Positions 9,646 to 22,995 of a stretch of DNA of 35,006 nt are shown one piece after another. How positions within the stretch are numbered: the stretch's first letter is position 1; every line of letters starts with the position of its first letter. The DNA is from a virus (lineage: Duplodnaviria > Heunggongvirae > Uroviricota > Caudoviricetes): positions 1 to 35,006 of IMG/VR virus record IMGVR_UViG_2778261448_000009; one strand, 5' to 3'. Below the pieces are notes generated by a model. It was not told the DNA's origin. It made no database searches and saw only the letters and a list, made by a program, of their open reading frames with translations. Made by a program: the position numbers and the translations under genes.

Positions 9646-11658
9646 ATGCTTAAATTTCGCCGCGATCTTAACGGTTACGGTGGAGTTATTAACGAAGGGC
9701 ATAACGATCAATACGAGTTTGAAATTGCTTTCTCAAGTACACAGCCTTATCAGCGCCAATTTTGGGATGAGCAAAATCAAGAAATGGTGGTATTAGATGA
9801 AATTCTGGTACATACACCGGAAGCGGTTGATCTGTCTCGTCTGAATAATAACGCTCCGTTGCTGTTCAATCATAATTTCGATAATCATATTGGTGTCGTT
9901 TGTAACGCTCGAATCGATGCGGATAACGTAGGTCGTGCTCTGGTTAGATTCTCTAAGCATGGCACTTTGGCTAATGATATTCGCAATAAAGTCATTGAAG
10001 GTACGATGGAAAAAATTTCTGTCGGTTATGACATTAAAGAATATCACATCGACTACACCAAAGGACAACTGATTGTTACTAAGTGGGCACCCTATGAACT
10101 CTCATTTGTCACCGTTCCCGCAGACGATACGGTCGGTTTAAATCGCTCTCTAAATACTATCACAGTTAATTTGGAGGCTAAACGCGATATGACTAAAGAA
10201 CAAATTGAAGAAATCAAAGAAGAACAAGAATCCGCTCAGGTTGAAGAAACTCCGGTAGAAGAAAATAAAGAACCGGAAGTTGAAGAAACTCAAGAGCGCC
10301 AAGTTGAAGAGAATAAAGAAGATGAAAATCTCGAAGACGGAAAAGACGCTAAACATCCTGAAAGTGTTGATGATGATAGTTCAACTGTTCGGGAAACAGA
10401 AGAAGTAAAAGAAGAACGTGAAGCTGCTCCGGTTGAAGAAGAAAAAATCGAGGAAGTGGCTGAACGTTCCGAAGAAGACGAATTAGAAATTCGCGAAATT
10501 GCACGCGAGTTAAATATTAACGAAGACGATGAAGAATTTAAACGCGCATTGGCAAATAAAGAAATTACGCCGGAAGCATTCCGCACTAAGGCACTAAATA
10601 AAATCGCTACTGCTCAACGTAACAACGAACAACAAATTAAGGACTCTAAAATGGAAAAAACTTTTGACCTGAACAACGTAATTCGCTCTCTGGTAGATGG
10701 TGCTGCTCTGGGCGCTCATGAAGCTGAATATTCCGCTATGGCTGCTGGTGCTGCAATGCAGCGTGGTCGTGCTGCTCGCGGTGGCTCTGTATTCGTTCCG
10801 GCTGCTGCTATGCGTGCTGCTTCTGCTGGTAACACCAAAGCCGACCTGACCGCTATCACTGACGAAAAACTGATGACTGAATCCTACATCGAAATGCTGA
10901 TGCCGGAATCTGTTCTGGGTCGTCTGGGTGTGACTGTTTACAGTGGCTTGAACTCCCCGACCGCTATTCCAAAAATGACTAAATCCAGCGTTGACGCTTT
11001 CGGCTTCGTTGATGAAAACGGTGCTGCACCGGAAAGCAAAGCTGAATTTGCGAACGTGAAACTGTCTCCGAAAACTTTTGCTGGTGGCAACCCGATCAGC
11101 CGTCAGTCGCTGAAAACCGTTCCGGGCATCGCTACCCTGATCACTGATCACATTAACAAAGCTGTTCGCATCAAACTGGAACAACTGATTCTGTCTGATA
11201 AAGCTAACGACCGTGGTCCGGCTGGTCTGGTTAAGCAACTGGTAGACGCTAGCCGCGTTACCAAGAAAGCTGCTTTCTCTTACAAAGACTTCCTGAAAGA
11301 AATTGCAGCACTGACCGACGCTGGCGTTCCTGCTCAGGCGATCAAGTTTGCGATGAGCGGTGCAACTGCTTCTGAACTGGAATCTACCCTGAAAGATAAC
11401 GGCGTTTCCGGTTATATCATCGAAAACGGCAAACTGGCTGGTTACGAAGTAGTTACTTCTGGCGTTATCCCGGCAGACCACATCGTTCTGGGTGACTTCT
11501 CCGGTATTACTATCGGTGAGTGGGGAGGTCTGGAACTCGACATGGATCTAACTACATATAGGGATCGTGGTGCGGTAGTGCCTCGTATCTTTGTAGATTT
11601 GGACTACGTTGTAGCACAGCCGGAAGCTCTGAAAGTTCTTCACATCTCCGCTGAATGA
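9646..11658 (+). CDS. prohead protease (HK97 gp4-like) - acidic scaffold - major capsid protein, single 670-aa ORF
   Basis: N-terminal LLFNHNFDNHIG, ISVGY and YELSFVTVPA resemble HK97 protease motifs ALFNHD, SFAF and FDVSPVTYPA as I recall them. Residues about 185-300 are E-rich and repetitive. The C-terminal 330 aa have capsid-like composition. TGA stop. Confidence 0.7.
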   Translation: MLKFRRDLNGYGGVINEGHNDQYEFEIAFSSTQPYQRQFWDEQNQEMVVLDEILVHTPEAVDLSRLNNNAPLLFNHNFDNHIGVVCNARIDADNVGRALVRFSKHGTLANDIRNKVIEGTMEKISVGYDIKEYHIDYTKGQLIVTKWAPYELSFVTVPADDTVGLNRSLNTITVNLEAKRDMTKEQIEEIKEEQESAQVEETPVEENKEPEVEETQERQVEENKEDENLEDGKDAKHPESVDDDSSTVRETEEVKEEREAAPVEEEKIEEVAERSEEDELEIREIARELNINEDDEEFKRALANKEITPEAFRTKALNKIATAQRNNEQQIKDSKMEKTFDLNNVIRSLVDGAALGAHEAEYSAMAAGAAMQRGRAARGGSVFVPAAAMRAASAGNTKADLTAITDEKLMTESYIEMLMPESVLGRLGVTVYSGLNSPTAIPKMTKSSVDAFGFVDENGAAPESKAEFANVKLSPKTFAGGNPISRQSLKTVPGIATLITDHINKAVRIKLEQLILSDKANDRGPAGLVKQLVDASRVTKKAAFSYKDFLKEIAALTDAGVPAQAIKFAMSGATASELESTLKDNGVSGYIIENGKLAGYEVVTSGVIPADHIVLGDFSGITIGEWGGLELDMDLTTYRDRGAVVPRIFVDLDYVVAQPEALKVLHISAE

Positions 11659-13428: not shown

Positions 13429-16400
13429 ATGCAATCAATCCAATTTAAACGCACACAGACGGCTGGTAAAAAGCCGACGCCGGAACAATTATCACAGGGT
13501 GAAATCGCCTTACAGTTGGCGGATCATGTGATTTACACCAAAGACAAAAATAATAACGTAGTCCAAATTAGTGTTTCTCCAGAAAAACACGCTGAACTGA
13601 ATACGAAAGTAGACACCAACAAGGTCAATACAGATAAAGTCATTTCAGCAAATAAAACCGAAGCCGCTAATAATCTGGCTAGTGCTAAAGCTGAACTGAA
13701 TCAGACTATCACTTCTACCCGTGATACTCTCAATGCTTCAATCACTGCTGGCGATACCGCAGCCAACAAACGAATTGATGCTTTGACTACCACAGTAGGT
13801 AACAATAAAACCGAAGCGGCTAACGCTCTGGCGGCTGCTAAGACTGAACTGAATCAGACTATTACTTCAACCCGCGATACTATCAACGCGACAATTAACA
13901 AGAACAAGACAGATATTAATGCGCGAGTTGATCAGACGAATACCAACGTTACCAACTTAACGAATACTGTCGCAGCAAATAAATCAGCAATAGAAAAGAC
14001 GGTAGCGGATAATAAGAAAGATGCGGACACGAAGATCACCAATCTTACTAGTACGGTCTCTGCGAATAAGACGGCCATTGAAAGAACTGTTGCAAATAAC
14101 AAGGCCAGTGCCGATGCCGCAATTGCCGCAGCTAATCAGCGAATTGATTCGATTGAAGGTAGTGCCGATGCTGCTTACATCAAGAAGAATACCAACACTT
14201 ACCATCACGGCTATCTGTTAACCAAAACAGCTAACTATTTGGAAGACCAGACAGCGAGAGATCTTAACTACTTTGGTGCTTTCCGTACCAATGGTCAAGA
14301 TGGACTCATGGATCTAACTCTTAACGTTCCTCACTCTGCCGGCAAAGCGCACGGTCGCGGATTTACTTTCCGTTATGCGTCTGGTGGATCTCGTGTTGAA
14401 ACCTATGGTTTTGATAGAGAAGGACAGAAGAACTTTAGCTATAAGATGTATCACGAAGGTGATAAGCCGACTCCTGGCGAGATTGGTGCATACACCAAAG
14501 CCGAAGTTGATAAGATGTTTGTTAAAAACGTCGTTATGTCTGTTCCCAATTCTAGCGAAAACGTATCTGCATATTTCAAATTGGCAACCGCAACAATTCC
14601 ACAAAACGGGCGTAGTGTGTTTTTCCGTATTCATGGTGGTAATGGTTACAACGTTACGGCATATGACCAAGTTGATGTAGTAGAAATTCTTCTCCGTAGT
14701 GGTAACGATAGACCTAAAGGTCTTAACGTAATTGCATACCGTAGAAATACAAACAAAGATTTTGAGGTATTTGCTGTCAATACTTCCGGTGATAACTATG
14801 ATATCTACGTGAAATATCAGCGTTATACCGATAACGTTATTGTCGAATATGGGAAATCTGTTTATGTAAGTTTGACGGTTTATGATACGCCGGAAGCCAC
14901 GTTAATTAAACCTTCCGTTGGTGTTATCGGTGGTCGCAACGTAACTCTTTTTAACACAGAAAATAAACGTGGTGTGTTGAGTTTTGACGATAACACACAA
15001 AATAGTTATGATATTGTTCACTTGAGTAATGATAGGGGTACTGGTCGGAAATATATTCGTAAATTCCGTAGCAACTATAACGAAATGATCTGGCATGAGA
15101 CGGTTCAAGGTTCTACTTATCGACTCGCCACGGGTAGTACAGATTCTCAGGAGATTCTATCCGTTGAATCTAGTAGCTCTATTGCTGGGACTCATAAAGG
15201 TAATATTCTTTCTGGTCGAATGATGTTGGGTGGCGGTAGTAATGTTATTACCTTGCGGCGTCCTGCTGGTCAATCCAACCATATTGCGTTTCAAGATAAT
15301 CGGACTGGAGATATTACCCGTCAAGGGTGGATCGGTTATGGTAATGCTGATACTAACGTTTTTGAATGGTATAGTGATGTAGGTGGTACTTCTATTCGTC
15401 ACCACATAGACGGACAGATCGAATTTCAGACAGGTAACACAAAACGAGTTTATACTAACGCTCAATTCATCTCAATGAATAGCGACGCCTACCGCATGAT
15501 CTACGGTAATTATGGTGCATTCTGGCGTAATGACGGCAATAAAGTTTATCTTCTTTCTACTGCCGAAAATGATAAATTGGGCGGATGGAATGGAAACAGA
15601 CCGTTCATTTACGATTTGACTAACGGTAAAGTTACTTTAGGCGGTGATGGTAACGAAGGTGCATTAGTTCTTGAAAGAGATAGCCGTGCTGCCCGTTTTA
15701 GCAACAATGTATTCTTAGAAAAAGGACTGCTTACTTTCTCTGCTGGTGGAAATCAGTCGATGGATTCTTTTACGATTAACCATTGGGGGAATAGTAATGC
15801 CAATCGATATAACGTTTTGCAATTCCAGGACACTAGCGGAACTCACTTTACTACAGAACGTAACGGTACTGGTGGCTTACTTGCTCATTTCCGAGGGGAT
15901 TTAACTACCGAAGGAAAATTAACGTGGGGCAAAAATACAGCTACTTCTAGCTTTAATATCCGTGCGTGGGGTGCTGATGCTCGTAAACAAGTATTCGAAT
16001 GTGCGGACGAAAGCGGTTGGCACTGGTACACACAACGACCGGGCGGTCCGGGTACTGAATTAATCGAGTTTGCCATCAACGGTACTGTTAAACCTAAAGC
16101 AATTCACACTGGCGGTAATATCACGCTTAACGGTGCTGATATTGAGTTTCGTCGCAGTGGCAATAAGCATTTGTGGTTTAGAGATCCAAATGGCTTAGAA
16201 TTGGGTCTGTTGTACTGCGATGATGCTGGCGTTATGCGTATGCGCGGTGAGAAACAAACCGAAGTCTGGAAATTCGGCGGTAAGATGATTCACCTTGAAA
16301 CGGGCACTGTATCCGGTGGCGGTAATGGTCTTATTCGTGGTAGCGTTGCTGGTGGTAGTTGGGCTAGCTGGCGTGATCGTGCTTCTGGTATTCAGGTCGA

Positions 16401-16965
16401 TTGTCAACAATCAACCGATTCCGCTCATAACGTATGGAAAGCAACCCATCAAGGTAAATATCATATCGCAGCAATGGGTGTACATGTTCCTAGCGGTACT
16501 ATCGGTAACGCTACAGTTAAACTTCATGTTCATGACGCTGGTTTTGACTTTAACGCTGCTGGTGACTTTACCGCAGGTCGTAACGGTTCGTTTAACGATG
16601 TTTACATTCGCTCTGACTCCCGTTTGAAGATTAACAAGGAAGAATTACAGGACGGTGCATTAGAGAAAGTAAACTCCCTGAAAGTATACTCTTACGATAA
16701 AGTTAAATCTCTTTCCGATGACACAGTGATTAAACGCGAAGTAGGTATTATTGCTCAGGATCTGGAAAAAGTATTACCGGAAGCAGTAGGTATTCAATCC
16801 ACCGAAGATCCAGAACATCCAGAAGCAATCAAGACTATTTCTAACTCTGCTGTCAATGCTTTAATCATCAAAGCAATGCAGGAAATGACCGCTAAGTTTG
16901 ATGCTATGGCTAAAGAACTTGCCGAAACTAAAGCTGAATTAGCCGAACTGAAAGCAACTAAATAA
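13429..16965 (+). CDS. side tail fibre, 1178 aa, with C-terminal intramolecular chaperone (peptidase S74-like) domain
   Basis: N-terminus MQSIQFKRTQTAGKKPTPEQLSQGEIALQLADHVIY; tandem about 50-aa repeats (NKTEAAN-LA-AK-ELNQTITSTRDT) at nt about 13650-13900; C-terminal SDSRLKINKEELQDG...VGIIAQDLEKVLPEAV followed by a coiled coil, as in self-cleaving fibre chaperone domains. Confidence 0.75.
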   Translation: MQSIQFKRTQTAGKKPTPEQLSQGEIALQLADHVIYTKDKNNNVVQISVSPEKHAELNTKVDTNKVNTDKVISANKTEAANNLASAKAELNQTITSTRDTLNASITAGDTAANKRIDALTTTVGNNKTEAANALAAAKTELNQTITSTRDTINATINKNKTDINARVDQTNTNVTNLTNTVAANKSAIEKTVADNKKDADTKITNLTSTVSANKTAIERTVANNKASADAAIAAANQRIDSIEGSADAAYIKKNTNTYHHGYLLTKTANYLEDQTARDLNYFGAFRTNGQDGLMDLTLNVPHSAGKAHGRGFTFRYASGGSRVETYGFDREGQKNFSYKMYHEGDKPTPGEIGAYTKAEVDKMFVKNVVMSVPNSSENVSAYFKLATATIPQNGRSVFFRIHGGNGYNVTAYDQVDVVEILLRSGNDRPKGLNVIAYRRNTNKDFEVFAVNTSGDNYDIYVKYQRYTDNVIVEYGKSVYVSLTVYDTPEATLIKPSVGVIGGRNVTLFNTENKRGVLSFDDNTQNSYDIVHLSNDRGTGRKYIRKFRSNYNEMIWHETVQGSTYRLATGSTDSQEILSVESSSSIAGTHKGNILSGRMMLGGGSNVITLRRPAGQSNHIAFQDNRTGDITRQGWIGYGNADTNVFEWYSDVGGTSIRHHIDGQIEFQTGNTKRVYTNAQFISMNSDAYRMIYGNYGAFWRNDGNKVYLLSTAENDKLGGWNGNRPFIYDLTNGKVTLGGDGNEGALVLERDSRAARFSNNVFLEKGLLTFSAGGNQSMDSFTINHWGNSNANRYNVLQFQDTSGTHFTTERNGTGGLLAHFRGDLTTEGKLTWGKNTATSSFNIRAWGADARKQVFECADESGWHWYTQRPGGPGTELIEFAINGTVKPKAIHTGGNITLNGADIEFRRSGNKHLWFRDPNGLELGLLYCDDAGVMRMRGEKQTEVWKFGGKMIHLETGTVSGGGNGLIRGSVAGGSWASWRDRASGIQVDCQQSTDSAHNVWKATHQGKYHIAAMGVHVPSGTIGNATVKLHVHDAGFDFNAAGDFTAGRNGSFNDVYIRSDSRLKINKEELQDGALEKVNSLKVYSYDKVKSLSDDTVIKREVGIIAQDLEKVLPEAVGIQSTEDPEHPEAIKTISNSAVNALIIKAMQEMTAKFDAMAKELAETKAELAELKATK

Positions 16966-17021: not shown

Positions 17022-17495
17022 ATGTCTCAACAATTCAAAGATATTTTTACTGGTGGTTTGGTAAGTCTGTTCTATCACGCTGATACCACTAACACCGATC
17101 TTGCTGATGAAGCATACGAAGAAATTAAAGAGTGTGCTGGTTTTCCTGAAACTGGTATCGAGCGCGGTACTGTAGAAGTTAAATCCTTCTCTTCTCAGTA
17201 TAACCGTAAACTGGTAGGGAAGCTGAACGTTCCTGATCTGACTCTGACCGTTAACTACATCCCAGGCGATGCGGTACATGAAAAACTGATCAAAGCTGCC
17301 GAAGACGGTACTCGTATTCAGATTAAAGTAGAATATTACGTTGACGCAGCAAAACAGACTGGTATTCGCACCGCTTTCAACGGCTTCATTTCTAAAGTTG
17401 CTATGAACGGTGGCGATGAAGAAGTTGTAACCAAAGAGTTTACCTTTGCTGTTGATGGTGCTCCGCTGAAACAGCAAATCTTCACTGCCGGATGA
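17022..17495 (+). CDS. major tail tube protein, gpV N-domain-like, 157 aa
   Basis: DLTLTVNYIPGD, EDGTRIQIKVEY, FNGFISKVA and TKEFTFAV parallel lambda gpV [32 protein letters not shown] and TRTVKVTNV as I recall them; RBS AAGGGGTAATT; strong terminator downstream; TGA stop. Confidence 0.65.
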   Translation: MSQQFKDIFTGGLVSLFYHADTTNTDLADEAYEEIKECAGFPETGIERGTVEVKSFSSQYNRKLVGKLNVPDLTLTVNYIPGDAVHEKLIKAAEDGTRIQIKVEYYVDAAKQTGIRTAFNGFISKVAMNGGDEEVVTKEFTFAVDGAPLKQQIFTAG

Positions 17496-17663: not shown

Positions 17664-18170
17664 ATGGCGAATGTCGTTAATAAGCCTGGCTGGGTCGGGT
17701 CATCTGCTGTTTCTGTAACTGGTCAACGATGGATGAGCGCAGCAATGAACGCATTAAAGGTTAGTCGCCCAGCTAACATGAGTGCGATGTGTGGTCGTGG
17801 TATGGATACGGTTGTAGCTACTGCTGCGTGGACTACTTCATTGGGTAATAACTGGGGTGTAACTGCTTCAAACTATCCAGTAACTGACATGCGCGGTAAA
17901 GGATCTATGGAGAACCCCGAAAACGTGGGCGTAGGGCGTCTGATTGGCGTTATCGTTGGTCAATTCAATGGTGGTACTCCTACTATGGCTGTATATCTCC
18001 AGAACGGTAGAGCGGGGAATATAACCGTTAATTTGGGTGGTGCTGCTGTCACTGTTCCTTATAACAGTATGCAAAGTGGTTTTCATTACTATTGGTTAAG
18101 CAATCCTCCGGCTGCTTTCCTAACAAATATTAAGAAGGCTGGCACTAAGCAGACTTTGAAAATCTCTTAA
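17664..18170 (+). CDS. hypothetical structural protein, 168 aa
   Basis: RBS GGAG before the ATG; sits between the tube and chaperone genes; Gly/Thr/Val-rich, beta-rich composition; no family recognised. Confidence 0.4.
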   Translation: MANVVNKPGWVGSSAVSVTGQRWMSAAMNALKVSRPANMSAMCGRGMDTVVATAAWTTSLGNNWGVTASNYPVTDMRGKGSMENPENVGVGRLIGVIVGQFNGGTPTMAVYLQNGRAGNITVNLGGAAVTVPYNSMQSGFHYYWLSNPPAAFLTNIKKAGTKQTLKIS

Positions 18171-18215: not shown

Positions 18216-18524
18216 ATGAATCTGAATGAAATGCTGAAAGCTCTTTCTCCGAAACGTGAATCTTTAACCCTCGGCGGATTTACGTTCTATGCTCGCCCTA
18301 TGTCGGTGCAAGAATTTAATGAACATGTTTTCAATACTGATAAAAAAGACCGTGATGAACGCTCTATTCTTCGTTGTATTGAAGATGAAGACGGTAAGCC
18401 AGTATTTGAATCTATTGAACAAGTTAAGGCACTGTATACTAGCGTCCGCAGTGAATTAATCGGCTTAGTTGCTCAAGCATCATTGATGAAAGATGCGGCG
18501 GTAATTGAAAACGAGGTAAAGTAA
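18216..18524 (+). CDS. tail assembly chaperone, gpG-like, 102 aa
   Basis: Immediately upstream of the tape measure gene; RBS GAGGAA; followed by a -1 frame ORF with no RBS of its own. Confidence 0.6.
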   Translation: MNLNEMLKALSPKRESLTLGGFTFYARPMSVQEFNEHVFNTDKKDRDERSILRCIEDEDGKPVFESIEQVKALYTSVRSELIGLVAQASLMKDAAVIENEVK

Positions 18525-18907
18525 ACCCGCTCTTGAATTTTTATTTTCGGCAAATGATGCGTCGGGGCTTGAGTAAAGATGAGATGGATAATATGCCAAT
18601 TACGCTATTTTGGGCGTTGCATATATTCGATACATATCTTGAACCACAAAGCCCCCTATATCAAGATGCGCGACATGCACAGTCGATGTATTACATGCAC
18701 GTTACATCTCCTAACATGACTCGTGAATGGTTGAATAAAATCAATGTTAACCAATTCCGAATGATTAAGGACGACAAGCAATTTAAAACGCAAGAAGAAA
18801 TAAAAGAAATTGCTCGTAAGAAAGAGGAAGAACGTAACTCTGCTTTGGTTGATAGTTATTTCGACGCTTCATTATTACAAAAGCTCAAGAGCGGTCAATT
18901 GGGGTAA
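18518..18907 (+). CDS. gpT-like -1 frame extension of the tail assembly chaperone (GT fusion by programmed -1 frameshift)
   Basis: The -1 frame is open from 18509 to TAA at 18905; proposed slip at A-AAG (18518-18521) with the zero-frame TAA in the A site; the only start the ORF finder found is TTG at 18533 with no Shine-Dalgarno. Confidence 0.5.
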   Translation, partial: KVNPLLNFYFRQMMRRGLSKDEMDNMPITLFWALHIFDTYLEPQSPLYQDARHAQSMYYMHVTSPNMTREWLNKINVNQFRMIKDDKQFKTQEEIKEIARKKEEERNSALVDSYFDASLLQKLKSGQLG

Positions 18908-18910
18908 TTT

Positions 18911-21265
18911 ATGACAAAACATATAGTAACAATAGAAGGGGATAATAAAGGTCTAAGGAGAAGTACCAATCAGGCGATAGAGATGCTTGATAACCTTTCA
19001 GAAAGGGCAATGAATCTTGATTTGTCTGGTGGTTTATCTAGTTTAAGTGGAACCCTTCGCGGAACTGGTGGATCGCTTGCTTTGGCTGCTGGTGGTTTTG
19101 TTGGTTTGGCTGCTGGCGCTATTTCTGCTGCAAATGCCATCGGTGATTATGTAAAGGAATACAGCGAAGTTTCAAAAGCAACTGGTTTAACCGTCGAAAC
19201 ACTCCAGAAATTAGAGAAGCAATTCTCCGGTACTGGCTTAACCGTTGAGAAATTTGGTGATATTAACAAAGACACCTTAGATAAGCTGGCTGATGCATGG
19301 CGTAACGGTGGCGGTATTGAAGACGACCTAGAAAGTGTAGGTTTGAAGATTAAAGATTATGCCGAGTTTATGAACGATCCACAAGGCGGGATGAAAGCGG
19401 CGATCAAGGTCTTCTATGATATGCGCAAGGCTGGTGCGTCTATCGCTGATGTTAAGTTTATGATGGAATCGTTAGCCAGTGATTCAAGTCATATGGCTGA
19501 TGAATTGCAGAAATACGGATCTTATCAGGAAGCTGTAAACGCCATTAATCAGCAAACTGTTAAAATCACCAATGACACAGCCGAAGAATATAATAAATTC
19601 TCTAAAAATATGGATACCCTTACCGATAACTTAAAGGGTATGGCTGCAAATGCACTAAATCCAGTTGTTGAAGGGATGAATAATCTTTACAACTGGTTTG
19701 ATAAAGATTGGGAAAAGACCGCTTTATTCAACGCATTAAAGACTTTTAATGAAAGGTTTGAAAAAGCTCGCCAGAATATGGCTATGGCTAACGGTGGTTT
19801 TATTAACAAGCATGGTTATAGTTCTACTGGTCTAGCGGGTGGACAAGCCAGCTTCAACAATAAACCAAATTATCCTGATCGTTGGGTGGATAGTGAAGGC
19901 GTTACCCGTGATAAAAACGGTGATCCGGTAATTACTATCACTGGAAATAAATCGGATACCGGATTTACCCCAACGGGTCAAGGTGGAGGCGTCACCGGAC
20001 CATCGAAAAAAGAACAAGAAGAAGCCAAGAAGAAAGCGGAAGAGGCAGCTAAAAAGGCTAAGGAAGCCGCAGAAAAAGCACAGAAAGCACGCGAGGATGC
20101 AATCAAGCGACTGAATGCTCTTGATGTTAAATTGCAAGGACAGACAGCCGCGTCTATTGCTTCTCAAAACAAGCAGTTAGAAGCCAGCTTGAAAGATTTA
20201 GACACTGCTTTAGATATGGGCTTAATCTCTCAGCAAGACGCAGCCGCTAAACGTCAGCAACTGTTAGATCAGAACGCAGAAAACATCTATAAAATGATGT
20301 TGGGTGCTGATCCGATTGATGCTCTGAATGCCTTAACAGTTTTGCAACAAATCAGGGACAACGAGCTAGAAAGCCATAAACGGTTACTTGATGGTAAAGC
20401 TATCTCCTACGAAGAATATATGCGTCGTGTGAATGATACCGAGCAAAACTATTCTCAGATTGATAGTCAGTTACAGGGAATGGATGGTTTTAAAACCAAT
20501 CAATTGACTAATAGCTTAGACTATCAGGATTCAAATAACCCGTTTGCTAAATTTAATGCAATCGATCAAGAGAAATCGGAAGCTGAACAAGATTATAAGA
20601 CCGAAAAACTCAATATTGATGGTATTAATGATCCAGCTAAACGGATGGCTGCATTAGAAAAACTCAATGAAAACCATCAAAAACGGATGGCTGCAATTGA
20701 AAAGAAATATGCTGATGCTCGCCAGTCAATAGCCGATGATATGTATGGCGGTTTTGCTGCTGCAATGACTCTCTTCGGGCAGGAAAACACTAAAGCTATG
20801 CAGATGGCTTTCAATGCTCATAAAGCATTCTCCATTGGACAAGCGACGGTGAACATGTGGACGGCTGCTACCGATGCATGGAACGATCCGACCAACGTAA
20901 CCACAGGACAAAAGATCGCTGCTGCTGCATTGGCTGTTTCTCAGAACATGGGGAACATCGCAAACATCAAGTCTACTAACGTTAGCGGTATGGCTCATGA
21001 TGGTATCGATAATATCCCTCGTGAGGGTACATGGTTGCTTGATAAGGGTGAACGAGTAGTTGATCAGCGTACTAACGGTGATTTGAAAGACTTCCTTGCT
21101 GCTCAAAAATCAGGCGGTGGCAACTCTCAGCCGATTGAAGTTAACGCACCTTTGAACATTAACGGCAACGTTAATAGCTCAGACAAGATGGTCATGGATG
21201 CTATCAAACGTCACGCTAAGTTAGTTGCTCAGGCGGTAGAAGACGCACAACGCCGTAAGATGTAA
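18911..21265 (+). CDS. tail tape measure protein, 784 aa
   Basis: Position after G/GT; long helical Ala/Lys/Glu-rich repeats (KKEQEEAKKKAEEAAKKAKEAAEKAQKARE); Gly-rich N-terminal segment. Confidence 0.8.
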   Translation: MTKHIVTIEGDNKGLRRSTNQAIEMLDNLSERAMNLDLSGGLSSLSGTLRGTGGSLALAAGGFVGLAAGAISAANAIGDYVKEYSEVSKATGLTVETLQKLEKQFSGTGLTVEKFGDINKDTLDKLADAWRNGGGIEDDLESVGLKIKDYAEFMNDPQGGMKAAIKVFYDMRKAGASIADVKFMMESLASDSSHMADELQKYGSYQEAVNAINQQTVKITNDTAEEYNKFSKNMDTLTDNLKGMAANALNPVVEGMNNLYNWFDKDWEKTALFNALKTFNERFEKARQNMAMANGGFINKHGYSSTGLAGGQASFNNKPNYPDRWVDSEGVTRDKNGDPVITITGNKSDTGFTPTGQGGGVTGPSKKEQEEAKKKAEEAAKKAKEAAEKAQKAREDAIKRLNALDVKLQGQTAASIASQNKQLEASLKDLDTALDMGLISQQDAAAKRQQLLDQNAENIYKMMLGADPIDALNALTVLQQIRDNELESHKRLLDGKAISYEEYMRRVNDTEQNYSQIDSQLQGMDGFKTNQLTNSLDYQDSNNPFAKFNAIDQEKSEAEQDYKTEKLNIDGINDPAKRMAALEKLNENHQKRMAAIEKKYADARQSIADDMYGGFAAAMTLFGQENTKAMQMAFNAHKAFSIGQATVNMWTAATDAWNDPTNVTTGQKIAAAALAVSQNMGNIANIKSTNVSGMAHDGIDNIPREGTWLLDKGERVVDQRTNGDLKDFLAAQKSGGGNSQPIEVNAPLNINGNVNSSDKMVMDAIKRHAKLVAQAVEDAQRRKM

Positions 21266-21315: not shown

Positions 21316-21876
21316 ATGTTCAAATCCAAGAATATTAAAATCACAGATTTTACTCTTAAATCAAAACAACCTTTCTTCAAGGCGCAATCTATCTCCGGTA
21401 AGTTCCAGCGTCGCTTTACTGGCATCCATTTTTACGAAGCAGAATTTACCGCGAATTACATGGCTCAGGATATTAACGAAGTAAAAGAATTTGTAGCACG
21501 TCACCTTTTTGGTCGTCCTTTTAGTGTGCCACTGTCTTACTTTTCAAAATATACAGGTGATGTACGCCAGATGGTTACGGCTGCTGCTGGTACTGCTCGC
21601 GGTGGGCGCAAGGTAAGACTCTCCAACTTCACCGGAACACTGAAAGCGGGAACTATCATCCAGTTTGAGAACCACAAGAAAATCTACACGATCACCGAAG
21701 ACGTGAAATCAGGTGGTGAAATGAAACTCTTCCCTAACTTGCGCCAAAACGTCCTAGCGGGTGAGGTGATCAAGTATCAGAACGTAGAGGGCGAATTTCT
21801 TCTCAAAACAGAAAACATCGATTGGAAGATCGCCCAGATTGGCAAGATGAAATTCGAATTAGTGGAGAATGTATAA
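21316..21876 (+). CDS. minor tail protein (lambda gpM position), 186 aa
   Basis: Synteny after the tape measure gene; TAA stop overlaps the next ATG (TAATG). Confidence 0.5.
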   Translation: MFKSKNIKITDFTLKSKQPFFKAQSISGKFQRRFTGIHFYEAEFTANYMAQDINEVKEFVARHLFGRPFSVPLSYFSKYTGDVRQMVTAAAGTARGGRKVRLSNFTGTLKAGTIIQFENHKKIYTITEDVKSGGEMKLFPNLRQNVLAGEVIKYQNVEGEFLLKTENIDWKIAQIGKMKFELVENV

Positions 21877-22529
21877 TGGCAACTATTCAAGAATCATTCA
21901 GCAAACTATGCACCAATCTGGACTTCATCGAGGTCTACAACGACCAGACAGGGCAGAATGTATCTAGATTGACGCTACCGCAACTTTTCTCCACTGGATC
22001 GATGTTTCACATTATCGAAGCAGTCACCGCGTCAGGGGACGTTCTACGGCTTACAGATGGGTATTTCGATTTGGACTATAACGGTTTTACGTATCTCGCA
22101 ACGGGTGATTTTCTTCAAATCTCATCGAATACCGAAGAGAAGGAGATCAACAACAACGGGATCAACGTAACTGTTTCTAACGTTCGCGAGGAATACATTA
22201 CCTTGATTCGTAACAAGCAATTCGATAAATCTGATGTGAAAATCGAGATGGTTTTCCTGAACCCTAACACGGGCAAGGTTGAAACCACTTACCCTGTTTT
22301 CCGTGGGGTAGTCGATTCCATCGGGATTAACATCGAACATGAAGATGATGAGTGTAAAAACGAATCTGAATTTCAGCTTAATAGTATCTGGGAAGTTCTA
22401 GATAAAAACGCTCGTAGTCATGCTTCTGATGGTATCCACCGATCCTATGTTGGAAACGAGAACGATCTATTCTTCTCCCGTGCCGGGAAGTGGAACTCAG
22501 AATCAAAATGGTTTAGCTCTAAGAAATAA
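21876..22529 (+). CDS. minor tail protein (lambda gpL position), about 217 aa
   Basis: I place the start at the ATG at 21876 (MATIQESF), in frame with but downstream of the track start at 21822, because it overlaps the upstream stop as TAATG. Confidence 0.5.
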   Translation: MATIQESFSKLCTNLDFIEVYNDQTGQNVSRLTLPQLFSTGSMFHIIEAVTASGDVLRLTDGYFDLDYNGFTYLATGDFLQISSNTEEKEINNNGINVTVSNVREEYITLIRNKQFDKSDVKIEMVFLNPNTGKVETTYPVFRGVVDSIGINIEHEDDECKNESEFQLNSIWEVLDKNARSHASDGIHRSYVGNENDLFFSRAGKWNSESKWFSSKK

Positions 22530-22575
22530 TCCCTTCTCCCTAAGCCTAGTAAATAACTGCATGGAGGTATTCAAC

Positions 22576-22995
22576 ATGCTAAAAACTAGGCTTATCACCG
22601 ATTACATCAATTCTTTAATAGGTCAGGAGTTCGTTCAAGGTGAGAATGATTGCAATCTAATTGCATGTAAGATCATCGATATTCTCGCTGGTACTGACCT
22701 ATATAATTCTCTTTATAAAAAATATTCAACTAAAGAAGAAGGCTTGAAAATCTGCAAAGAATTAAGCGGGTATTCAAATATCCTTCAACCAATTAAGAAA
22801 CATTTCAAATTAGTCACTGATGATTTACAGGACGGCGACTTACTGGTCACAGCCCACAAATTAGGAAACCGTAATTATTATTCCGTAGTTCCTCATTATT
22901 CCGGTTATGGCCTCGTTGAAGAAGATGGTATCTGGATGACCATTCCTGTTTCAGACATTGACTATGAACAAGTTTATAGATTCGGGGGTGAATAA
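22576..22995 (+). CDS. tail tip assembly protein, NlpC/P60-like (lambda gpK C-terminal-domain-like), about 139 aa
   Basis: GENDCNLIAC and DLQDGDLLV parallel lambda gpK GVTDCYTL and AQPGDVLLC as I recall them; GGAGG 8 nt before the ATG at 22576, which is in frame with the longer track ORF 22420-22995. Confidence 0.5.
   Translation: MLKTRLITDYINSLIGQEFVQGENDCNLIACKIIDILAGTDLYNSLYKKYSTKEEGLKICKELSGYSNILQPIKKHFKLVTDDLQDGDLLVTAHKLGNRNYYSVVPHYSGYGLVEEDGIWMTIPVSDIDYEQVYRFGGE

What the first reader, a model, noticed from the sequence alone, without database searches (positions are those of the whole stretch)
18216..18907. Tail assembly chaperone pair with likely -1 frameshift at A-AAG next to the stop (G/GT analog)
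The 102-aa ORF upstream of the tape measure gene is followed by a 125-codon ORF in the -1 frame that has no Shine-Dalgarno and only a TTG start. The -1 frame is open from 18509, so a shift between 18509 and 18524 would fuse them. The last sense codon AAG (18519-18521) is preceded by A, so tRNA-Lys can re-pair on AAA (18518-18520), and the zero-frame TAA would be in the A site. In lambda, gpG and gpGT are made this way upstream of the tape measure gene; the site here (GTA-AAG-TAA) differs from lambda's G-GGA-AAG heptamer.
Basis: partly seen in the sequence, partly recalled or inferred. Interest (0 to 1): 0.5.

Follow-up and report, generated by a model that had tools for sequence, protein, structure and literature searches.

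The report
Unannotated tail-chaperone G/GT frameshift site
This E. coli prophage most likely makes its two tail-assembly chaperones the way phage lambda does, by a rare backward ribosome slip at the last codon of the first gene; the device is well known, but it uses a minimal slip site and is missing from public annotations.

Summary

- **Layout.** ORF G (18216-18524, 102 aa) sits upstream of the tape measure gene (18911-21265). A -1 frame ORF is open from 18509 to 18907. The 16-nt overlap holds G's only in-frame A_AAG (18518-18521), directly before TAA.
- **G identity.** G matches tail-assembly-chaperone families, and its model's best PDB match is the HK97 chaperone.
- **Slip codon is conserved.** In more than 45 distinct related junctions from E. 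coli, Salmonella and metagenomes, the Lys AAG falls at the same place. GTAAAG is the longest invariant run in 304 nt.
- **Relatives carry recognised slip sites.** Distant relatives have A_AAA_AAG or T_TTA_AAG at that place.
- **No independent start.** The 11 codons between the slip and the first ATG evolve as coding sequence. The TTG "start" becomes CTG or TTA (still Leu) in many relatives, and the ATGs are not conserved.
- **No stimulator found.** No RNA structure was detected. The adjacent stop is common but not universal.
- **Predicted product.** GT is 230 aa, 27.0 kDa, with junction ...ENEVK-VNPLL.
- **Annotation.** RefSeq lists two separate proteins, and G is often called "cytochrome".

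This is a new member of a known kind. The slip efficiency and the role of the stop codon are untested.

The parts
17022..17495 (+). Major tail tube protein gene, the expected binding partner of the T domain.
   Evidence: phrog_158 major tail protein, E 1.9e-21; Pfam Phage_TTP_11, E 1.6e-6. The partner role is inferred from lambda.
18216..18524 (+). G: tail assembly chaperone, 102 aa, 11.6 kDa, the zero-frame product ending at TAA 18522-18524.
   Evidence: phrog_344 tail assembly chaperone, E 1.8e-7. PF16459 Phage_TAC_13, E 1.6e-4 (below the gathering score); 19 of 23 G-family sequences scanned (window G included) hit it at E<0.01. Model pLDDT 79.7; best PDB match is the HK97 tail assembly chaperone 2ob9 (prob 1.00, TM 0.54-0.59). 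Good Shine-Dalgarno, GAGGA.
18515..18521 (+). Slip site G_GTA_AAG. tRNA-Lys re-pairs from AAG (18519-18521) to AAA (18518-18520).
   Evidence: GTAAAG is the longest invariant run in 304 nt across 38 distinct related sequences. The AAG codon is at the homologous place in all 14 lineages tabulated, with A_AAA_AAG or T_TTA_AAG there in distant relatives. It is the only in-frame A_AAG in G.
18522..18524 (+). Zero-frame stop TAA directly 3' of the slip codon; a possible stimulator.
   Evidence: A stop is adjacent in the window and most relatives: TAA, TAG in L029, TGA in L075. It is not adjacent in L065 and L083 (4 codons on), L088 (1), L080 (6), DCP80 (10) or L086 (11).
18521..18907 (+). T segment: -1 frame coding region read after the slip (128 codons plus stop; the frame itself is open from 18509).
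   Evidence: pN/pS is 0.02-0.33 in this frame for the 72 nt after the slip, against 0.65 or more in the other two frames. In the 11 codons before the first ATG there are 28 synonymous and 13 non-synonymous codon changes. No family hit. The family is small: 38 clusters and 19 representatives.
18533..18535 (+). TTG, the nominal start of the T ORF; probably just a Leu codon.
   Evidence: It is replaced by CTG or TTA (still Leu) in L009-L030, L031/L032 and L078. The nearest SD-like sequence is 16 nt upstream.
18911..21265 (+). Tape measure protein gene, 784 aa, the expected substrate of G and GT.
   Evidence: phrog_13674 tail length tape measure protein, E 5.1e-71.

Best explanation
Genes 18216-18524 and 18521-18907 encode the tail assembly chaperone pair of a lambda-like siphovirus prophage of E. 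coli.

Most ribosomes terminate at TAA 18522 and make G (102 aa). A minority slip one base backwards at GTA_AAG. tRNA-Lys, the single E. coli lysine tRNA with anticodon mnm5s2UUU, leaves AAG (18519-18521) and re-pairs on AAA (18518-18520). The next codon read is then GTA (18521-18523), and translation continues in the -1 frame to 18904. The product is GT: 230 aa, 27.0 kDa, with junction ...IENEVK-VNPLLNFYFRQMM....

By analogy with lambda gpG/gpGT, the G parts would coat the tape measure protein and the T part would recruit the tail tube protein. Neither would be in the virion.

**Shown here:** the anatomy, that G resembles tail assembly chaperones in sequence and fold, that the -1 frame is under protein-coding selection right from the slip codon, and that no start codon is conserved.

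**Inferred:** that slippage happens, its efficiency, and the timing. The slip could occur with tRNA-Lys in the A site while tRNA-Val releases the A of GTA, or with tRNA-Lys in the P site while the stop codon waits for a release factor. Both routes give the same protein.
For: 1. **Position and family.** G lies upstream of the tape measure gene and matches tail assembly chaperone families and the HK97 TAC fold.
2. **Frame relation is conserved.** T is in the -1 frame of G in 41 distinct junctions from IMG/VR, metagenomes, an E. coli chromosome and phage DCP80. The same holds in L077, L078, L080-L083 and L086-L088.
3. **Slip codon is conserved.**
   - A_AAG is at the same place in all 14 lineages tabulated.
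   - The lysine read after the slip is an invariant column in a 4-sequence alignment that includes DCP80.
   - GTAAAG is the longest invariant run in 304 nt.
   - The codon 5' of AAG is GTA, GCA, GAA, TTA or AAA.
   - L080 and L087 carry A_AAA_AAG and DCP80 carries T_TTA_AAG, both recognised slip heptamers.
   - pN/pS is 0.02-0.33 in the -1 frame for the 72 nt after it, and 0.65 or more in the other frames.
   - There are 28 synonymous and 13 non-synonymous codon changes in the 11 codons before the first ATG.
   - L029 has a 3-nt insertion that keeps both frames.
   - The TAA-to-TGA change in L075 is synonymous in the -1 frame.
5. **No conserved start.**
   - TTG 18533 is CTG or TTA in many relatives.
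   - The QMM methionines read QAL, QLM, QML, QIM or are absent in L081, L083, L082, L086 and DCP80.
   - Gene callers start T at six or more different positions.
6. **The alternative site A_AAC (18509-18512) is excluded.** It is AGC in L067 and L071 and absent in L031 and L078.
7. **Precedent.** NNA_AAG hexanucleotide sites drive -1 frameshifting in B. subtilis cdd and in IS1222, G_GU is accepted as the X_XX part in T7 gene 10 (PMC5009743), and A_AAG is the most shift-prone tetramer in E. coli (PMC4066793). The distantly related phage RcCronus has an annotated joined chaperone CDS with G_GGA_AAC directly before its TGA.
Against: - No protein data; everything rests on sequence comparison.
- No stimulatory element was found. 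The downstream fold is no better than shuffles (z = 0.18). RNAalifold gives -1.2 to -2.5 kcal/mol with at most one compensatory pair. There is no Rfam match.
- In E. coli reporter assays, Z_ZZN tetramers without a stimulator were barely above background (about 0.15% against 0.11%). A_AAG reached 5.6% only with a pseudoknot (PMC4066793). The efficiency here could therefore be very low.
- The P-site tRNA-Val can re-pair on GGT at only two of three positions.
- The GAGG just 5' of the site is too close to act like the dnaX upstream Shine-Dalgarno stimulator (own knowledge of that system), and it is not conserved (TCGG in L031, CGAA in L078).
- No fused GT-length protein exists among the database hits, so no natural in-frame fusion corroborates the model.
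- T matches no known T-domain family.
Confidence: 0.85

Rival explanations
1. T is a separate protein made by independent initiation, or by termination-reinitiation after G. The start would be TTG 18533, ATG 18554/18557, or ATG 18593. RefSeq annotation of a 90%-identical E. coli prophage starts T at the equivalent of 18593.
For: PGAP and other gene callers annotate two separate CDSs in all E. coli genomes examined and in every protein-database cluster. The distance from the stop to the TTG is only 8 nt, so coupling is physically possible.
Against: - The TTG is not conserved, and the changes there are synonymous Leu codons.
- The ATGs are not conserved.
- No candidate start has a Shine-Dalgarno sequence.
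- The 11-24 codons upstream of those starts are under purifying selection in the -1 frame.
- In DCP80 and L086 the T homology begins upstream of the G stop codon.
Confidence: 0.08
2. The fusion is made, but the shift happens elsewhere or by another route: at A_AAC (18509-18512), by a forward hop of tRNA-Lys over the stop (+5, AAG to AAC), or by RNA polymerase slippage.
For: A_AAC lies inside the 16-nt overlap. Hops over stops are documented in E. coli (Weiss et al. 1987, cited in PMC5009743).
Against: - A_AAC is AGC in L067 and L071 and is absent in L031, L032 and L078.
- Upstream of the AAA codon the -1 frame residues vary freely (KRG, RIG, IRS, RRG).
- A +5 hop needs tRNA-Lys to pair with AAC.
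- The run of three A's is far too short for transcriptional slippage.
Confidence: 0.04
3. The -1 ORF is a decaying or non-expressed remnant, and the conservation only reflects recent common descent.
For: Some relatives do carry damaged copies: G is truncated in L021 and T is shortened in L028.
Against: T proteins have diverged to 35-67% identity while keeping an open frame, a conserved core (DTYLEPQ) and low pN/pS. The arrangement persists in E. coli, Salmonella, Proteus and Edwardsiella records.
Confidence: 0.03

Closest known systems
Phage lambda gpG/gpGT and the conserved dsDNA-phage tail chaperone frameshift (Levin, Hendrix & Casjens 1993; Xu, Hendrix & Duda 2004, 2013, 2014, partly as summarised in PMC5009743)
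   Same: Two overlapping ORFs directly upstream of the tape measure gene. The second is in the -1 frame with no start of its own. The slip is on a Lys AAG codon near the end of G. The expected result is a low-abundance fusion.
   Different: Lambda uses the full heptamer G_GGA_AAG. Here the P-site codon is GTA, so only two of three positions can re-pair on GGT, and the zero-frame stop follows immediately. T has no detectable similarity to lambda gpT or to any Pfam or PHROG family. A Gp38-like adhesin gene sits between the tube gene and G.
NNA_AAG hexanucleotide -1 frameshift sites: B. subtilis cdd (A_CGA_AAG), IS1222 (G_CGA_AAG), and the IS3-based study of Licznar et al. 2003 (cited in PMC5009743 and PMC4066793)
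   Same: A single tRNA-Lys re-pairs from AAG to AAA, with a 5' codon ending in A. GTA and GCA, the 5' codons seen in this clade, are read by cmo5U34 tRNAs with extended wobble. That is the class reported to favour the shift (own knowledge of that paper; only its general statement was read here).
   Different: Those sites work with a downstream structure or an upstream Shine-Dalgarno stimulator. None was found here.
Rhodobacter phage RcCronus tail assembly chaperones gp11/gp12 (NC_042049, annotated joined CDS)
   Same: Similar 36-kb siphovirus with a long fused capsid gene (28% identity to the window's capsid protein). Its chaperone slip site also lies directly before the zero-frame stop (G_GGA_AAC_TGA).
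   Different: It has a canonical heptamer. No sequence similarity of its G or T to the window's was detected.
HK97 tail assembly chaperone (PDB 2ob9)
   Same: Best structural match of the G model over its whole length (prob 1.00, TM 0.54-0.59, 22-23% identity).
   Different: Foldseek E is only 3e-3, and there is no sequence-level hit to any PDB chain.

Membership tests
Tail assembly chaperone G/GT pair with programmed -1 frameshift | Two ORFs located between the major tail protein gene and the tape measure gene, directly upstream of the latter | tested here: met
   Tube gene 17022-17495, G 18216-18524, T to 18907, tape measure gene 18911-21265. A Gp38-like gene (17664-18170) is inserted between the tube gene and G.
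Tail assembly chaperone G/GT pair with programmed -1 frameshift | Second ORF overlaps the end of the first in the -1 frame and lacks its own conserved start codon and ribosome binding site | tested here: met
   16-nt overlap; TTG and ATG not conserved; no SD.
Tail assembly chaperone G/GT pair with programmed -1 frameshift | Slippery sequence in the overlap, conserved among relatives | tested here: met
   A_AAG is at the homologous codon in all 14 lineages tabulated; GTAAAG is the longest invariant run.
Tail assembly chaperone G/GT pair with programmed -1 frameshift | Canonical X_XXY_YYZ heptamer | tested here: not met
   The window has G_GTA_AAG, so XXY is not XXX-compatible. Relatives L080 and L087 (A_AAA_AAG) and DCP80 (T_TTA_AAG) do meet it. 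Non-canonical sites are accepted in this family (PMC5009743), so this does not exclude membership.
Tail assembly chaperone G/GT pair with programmed -1 frameshift | G is homologous to known tail assembly chaperones | tested here: met
   phrog_344, E 1.8e-7. PF16459 at 22.4 bits (gathering score 28.8) in the window; 19 of 23 G-family sequences scanned hit it at E<0.01. Fold match to 2ob9.
Tail assembly chaperone G/GT pair with programmed -1 frameshift | T part is homologous to known T domains | tested here: not met
   No Pfam, PHROG or NCBIfam hit. The model was too poor for a fold search (pLDDT 64.8). T domains are known to be very diverse, so this weighs little.
Tail assembly chaperone G/GT pair with programmed -1 frameshift | A G-T fusion protein is made at a low ratio to G and is needed for tail assembly | not testable with these tools
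   Needs proteomics, a reporter assay or genetics.
NNA_AAG hexanucleotide -1 frameshift motif | Zero-frame AAG codon preceded by a codon ending in A, in a host with a single tRNA-Lys (UUU) | tested here: met
   GTA_AAG at 18516-18521. The host is E. coli: 53 of 5426 complete genomes carry the pair. The tRNA-Lys point comes from PMC5009743.
NNA_AAG hexanucleotide -1 frameshift motif | Flanking stimulator (downstream stem-loop or pseudoknot, or an upstream SD at 10-14 nt) | tested here: not met
   Fold z = 0.18. No conserved helix (energies -1.2 and -2.5 kcal/mol; at most one pair kept through changes on both sides). No conserved SD-like tract at that distance.
Stop-codon-stimulated ('shifty stop') slippage | Stop codon immediately 3' of the slip codon, conserved and required | tested here: inconclusive
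   Adjacent in the window and in most junctions, with TAA, TAG and TGA all seen. It is 1-11 codons away in L088, L065, L083, L080, DCP80 and L086, three of which also lack a canonical heptamer.

The most novel reading that the evidence does not exclude
In this clade the canonical heptamer seen in distant relatives (A_AAA_AAG, T_TTA_AAG) has been reduced to a bare GTA_AAG with no RNA stimulator. The zero-frame stop directly after AAG would then take over as the stimulator. Peptidyl-tRNA-Lys would slip back while the A-site stop waits for a release factor, so the G:GT ratio, and with it tail assembly, would respond to release-factor availability or growth state. That would be a natural, conserved, structure-free, stop-stimulated -1 frameshift in an E. 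coli prophage.
Probability: 0.2. Interest if true: 0.5.

Novelty: new member of a known kind. Interest (0 to 1): 0.3.

Why it matters
**Annotation.** This prophage group is present in about 1% of complete E. coli genomes (53 of 5426) and also occurs in Salmonella, Proteus and Edwardsiella records. In the RefSeq records examined it is annotated with two unrelated "hypothetical" CDSs. G is often mislabelled "cytochrome", and T is started at arbitrary internal methionines. Recognising the frameshift restores a 230-aa GT product and defines a new, small T-domain family.

**Recoding biology.** The family offers a natural series at one homologous position: A_AAA_AAG, T_TTA_AAG, G/A_GTA_AAG, G_GCA_AAG and C_GAA_AAG, each with or without an adjacent stop. 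This could be used to measure how much the P-site codon and the stop contribute to A_AAG slippage when no RNA structure is present.

The phenomenon itself has been textbook since 1993-2004.

Tried and rejected
1. **Fused GT query.** The 230-aa fusion searched against the 5.8-billion protein set gave no hit at all, although each half alone gave 33-38 hits. I treat as a limit of the word-index step, not as evidence. No hit to the T query in either protein set is near GT length apart from one weak 1364-aa match, and all G hits are 80-106 aa.
2. **Handing the fusion to the representative search.** T alone found only 19 representatives.
3. **Genome-contig scan with T.** No confirmed locus.
4. **Megablast of the region against phages.** No match. 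Only DCP80 was found, by tblastn.
5. **T against Pfam, PHROGs and NCBIfam.** Nothing credible. The T structure model was too poor to search (pLDDT 64.8, pTM 0.35).
6. **G against PDB sequences.** Nothing.
7. **Downstream stimulator.** A single-sequence fold, two RNAalifold runs and two Rfam searches were all negative.
8. **Upstream GAGG as a stimulator.** Rejected because it abuts the site and is not conserved.
9. **A_AAC at 18509-18512 as the slip site.** Rejected on comparative grounds.
10. **Look-ups of P0035 and P0037.** Not on record.

Full report
**1. The observation**

The sequence reads ...ATT GAA AAC GAG GTA AAG TAA in the frame of the ATG at 18216.

- In the -1 frame there is a TGA at 18506-18508. 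After that the frame is open from 18509 to the TAA at 18905-18907.
- The first start-type codon in that frame is TTG 18533, and the first ATGs are at 18554 and 18557.
- G has a good ribosome binding site, GAGGA 8 nt before its ATG. The TTG has only a GAGG 16 nt upstream, and the ATGs have nothing.
- The next gene (18911-21265, 784 aa) is a tape measure protein (phrog_13674, E 5e-71). The gene at 17022-17495 is a tail tube protein.
- In-frame A_AAG occurs at 0.36% of codons in this window's genes. G has one, and it is its last sense codon, inside the five-codon overlap. The chance expectation is about 2%.

The predicted fusion is 230 aa and 26,966 Da.

**2. What the proteins are**

- G (102 aa) matches phrog_344 "tail assembly chaperone" (E 1.8e-7). 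It matches Pfam Phage_TAC_13 below the gathering score (22.4 bits against 28.8).
- Of 23 G-family sequences scanned (the window's G included), 19 hit Phage_TAC_13 at E<0.01.
- An AlphaFold model built on 23 sequences (pLDDT 79.7) has the HK97 tail assembly chaperone 2ob9 as its best PDB match over its full length (prob 1.00, TM 0.54-0.59). The next hit is far weaker.
- T matches no Pfam, PHROG or NCBIfam family, and its model was too poor to search.
- The T family is small: 38 clusters at 90% identity and 19 representatives at 50% identity in 1.84 billion proteins. All are unnamed.

**3. Where it comes from**

- The window is a roughly 35-kb siphovirus-type prophage of E. coli. The G-T region is found in 53 of 5426 complete E. 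coli genomes, always chromosomal (one search found 52 with a longer query).
- In strain ETEC4090 the prophage lies next to ycdY and has a serine recombinase gene at its end.
- Among deposited phages only Escherichia phage DCP80 has recognisable G and T (30% and 40% identity).
- The capsid protein is distantly related to those of Cronusvirus phages.

**4. Comparative test of the frameshift**

I collected junctions from IMG/VR, metagenomes, an E. coli chromosome, and contigs encoding distant G or T homologues.

*(a) Frame relation.* In 41 distinct G-to-T sequences, T is in the -1 frame of G. The same is true in L077, L078, L080-L083 and L086-L088.

*(b) The slip codon.* The Lys AAG preceded by A is at the homologous place in every lineage tabulated.

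| Site (zero-frame codons) | Where | Sense codons between AAG and the stop |
|---|---|---|
| G_GTA_AAG_TAA | window and most E. coli and Salmonella copies | 0 |
| G_GTA_AAG_TAG | L029 (with a 3-nt GTA insertion that keeps both frames) | 0 |
| G_GTA_AAG_TGA | L075 (GTA to GTG in the -1 frame, silent) | 0 |
| A_GTA_AAG_TAA | L078 | 0 |
| G_GCA_AAG_TAA | L081 | 0 |
| G_GTA_AAG_AAA | L065, L083 | 4 |
| C_GAA_AAG_CAA | L088 | 1 |
| A_GTA_AAG_GCA | L086 | 11 |
| A_AAA_AAG_TAA | L087 | 0 |
| A_AAA_AAG_TCC | L080 | 6 |
| T_TTA_AAG_CCG | DCP80 | 10 |

The last three are recognised heptamers. The lysine read after the slip is an invariant column in a 4-sequence T alignment that includes DCP80. Across 38 distinct ungapped sequences, the longest invariant run in 304 nt is exactly GTAAAG.

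*(c) Coding signal.*
- For the 72 nt after the slip, pN/pS is 0.02-0.33 in the -1 frame. It is 0.65 or more in the other two frames.
- Within the 11 codons that precede the first ATG, eight relatives show 28 synonymous and 13 non-synonymous codon changes. For example, CTC TTG becomes CTT CTG, TTT becomes TTC, and CGG becomes CGC.

*(d) Start codons.*
- TTG 18533 is CTG or TTA in the large L009-L030 group, in L031/L032 and in L078. These have no ATG, GTG or TTG anywhere between the opening of the frame and the QMM motif.
- The QMM methionines are themselves QAL, QLM, QML or QIM in L081, L083, L082 and L086.
- Gene callers start T at six or more different positions. PGAP starts it at the equivalent of 18593, cutting off 24 conserved residues.

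*(e) The other candidate in the overlap.* A_AAC at 18509-18512 is AGC in L067 and L071 and absent in L031 and L078. The -1 frame residues before the AAA codon are not conserved.

Together these results show that the T frame is translated from the AAG/AAA codon onward without an initiation codon. That is what a -1 slip at A_AAG predicts.

**5. Mechanism**

The conserved requirement is re-pairing of tRNA-Lys from AAG to AAA.

- The literature read here states that E. coli has a single tRNA-Lys, that A_AAG is the most shift-prone tetramer, and that NNA_AAG sites work in B. subtilis cdd (incidentally) and in IS1222 (for its transposase).
- It also states that the 5' codon modulates efficiency through the wobble flexibility of its tRNA, and that G_GU is tolerated as the X_XX part in T7 gene 10 (PMC5009743; PMC4066793).
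- GTA and GCA are read by cmo5U34 tRNAs. This is my own knowledge and was not checked in a paper here.

I found no stimulator. The downstream fold is no better than shuffles (z = 0.18). There is no conserved helix: the two consensus folds have energies of -1.2 and -2.5 kcal/mol and, between them, one pair kept through changes on both sides. There is no Rfam hit and no conserved upstream SD at the right distance.

Tetramers without a stimulator gave about background levels in a reporter assay. The efficiency may therefore be low, or the adjacent stop may help.

The stop is adjacent in most copies, and all three stop codons occur. However, L065, L083, L086 and L088 combine a non-canonical site with a non-adjacent stop. 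The stop therefore cannot be essential across the family.

Whether the slip happens with tRNA-Lys in the A site or in the P site remains open. Both routes give ...ENEVK-VNPLL....

**6. Comparison with what is known**

- This is the lambda G/GT device. Membership is met on position, frame, lack of a start, a conserved slip site and G homology.
- It is not met on "canonical heptamer" or on "T homologous to known T domains". Neither is strictly defining.
- It is untestable here for the fusion product itself.
- The distantly related RcCronus has an annotated joined chaperone CDS whose G_GGA_AAC also abuts the stop.

**7. Novelty and verdict**

- The device is known and the hexanucleotide class is known.
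- What is new is this family's membership, its absence from RefSeq annotation and the natural series of slip-site variants.
- Verdict: interest 0.3; new member of a known kind.
- I put 0.85 on a GT fusion made by a -1 slip at 18518-18521.

Noticed in passing
window 13429-16965 and 17664-18170: The 1178-aa tail fibre gene is 75-90% identical at the DNA level (14212-16888) to gp37, the long-tail-fibre distal subunit of T-even Krischvirus/RB49-like myoviruses. A Gp38-like adhesin gene (PF21721, E 1.8e-15; phrog_1121, E 6e-33) lies separated from it by the tail tube gene. In relatives the gp38 gene sits before the tube gene (L080) or is absent (L078). This looks like a mosaic T-even receptor-binding module in a lambda-like prophage.
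   Followed up: partly
window 18216-18524 and homologues P0040-P0066: NCBI and UniRef name most G homologues "cytochrome", and some RefSeq E. coli genomes carry that product name. The protein matches tail assembly chaperone families and the HK97 chaperone fold, so this looks like a propagated misannotation.
   Followed up: yes
L001 (PQ671644.1, Escherichia phage DCP80, 8118-20366): DCP80 is filed as Straboviridae/Gaprivervirus (141 kb). Its first ~20 kb nevertheless carry a siphovirus head and tail module related to this window: capsid protein 43% identical, plus tube, G, T and tape measure genes. All are annotated as hypothetical. This may be a chimeric assembly or a misclassification.
   Followed up: no
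L085 350-1004 (Logan SRR28032185, 1-kb contig): In this distant relative, T lies in the +1 frame of G, and the end of G holds a run of ten A's (GAAAAAAAAAAT AAG AAG TGA). This is either a homopolymer assembly error or a site using a different route (transcriptional slippage or a +1/-2 shift). The tool flagged that the called gene does not translate to the query.
   Followed up: partly
window 9646-11658: The major capsid ORF is unusually long (670 aa). It is 28-31% identical to the equally long capsid proteins of Cronusvirus phages (RcCronus, RcRhea, Dinoroseobacter R4C), which suggests a fused capsid gene. Which domains are fused was not examined.
   Followed up: no
window 21316-21876 / 21822-22529 and 22420-22995: The distal tail protein gene and the next tail genes overlap by tens of bases in the mechanical ORF list. 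In the RefSeq relative the second gene starts at an ATG overlapping the stop (L064 22869). These look like ordinary coupled starts, not further recoding sites.
   Followed up: partly
L021 and L028 (IMG/VR prophage contigs): Some prophage copies carry damaged chaperone genes: the G ORF is cut to 50 aa in L021, and T ends about 100 nt early in L028. This suggests decay in some lysogens.
   Followed up: no
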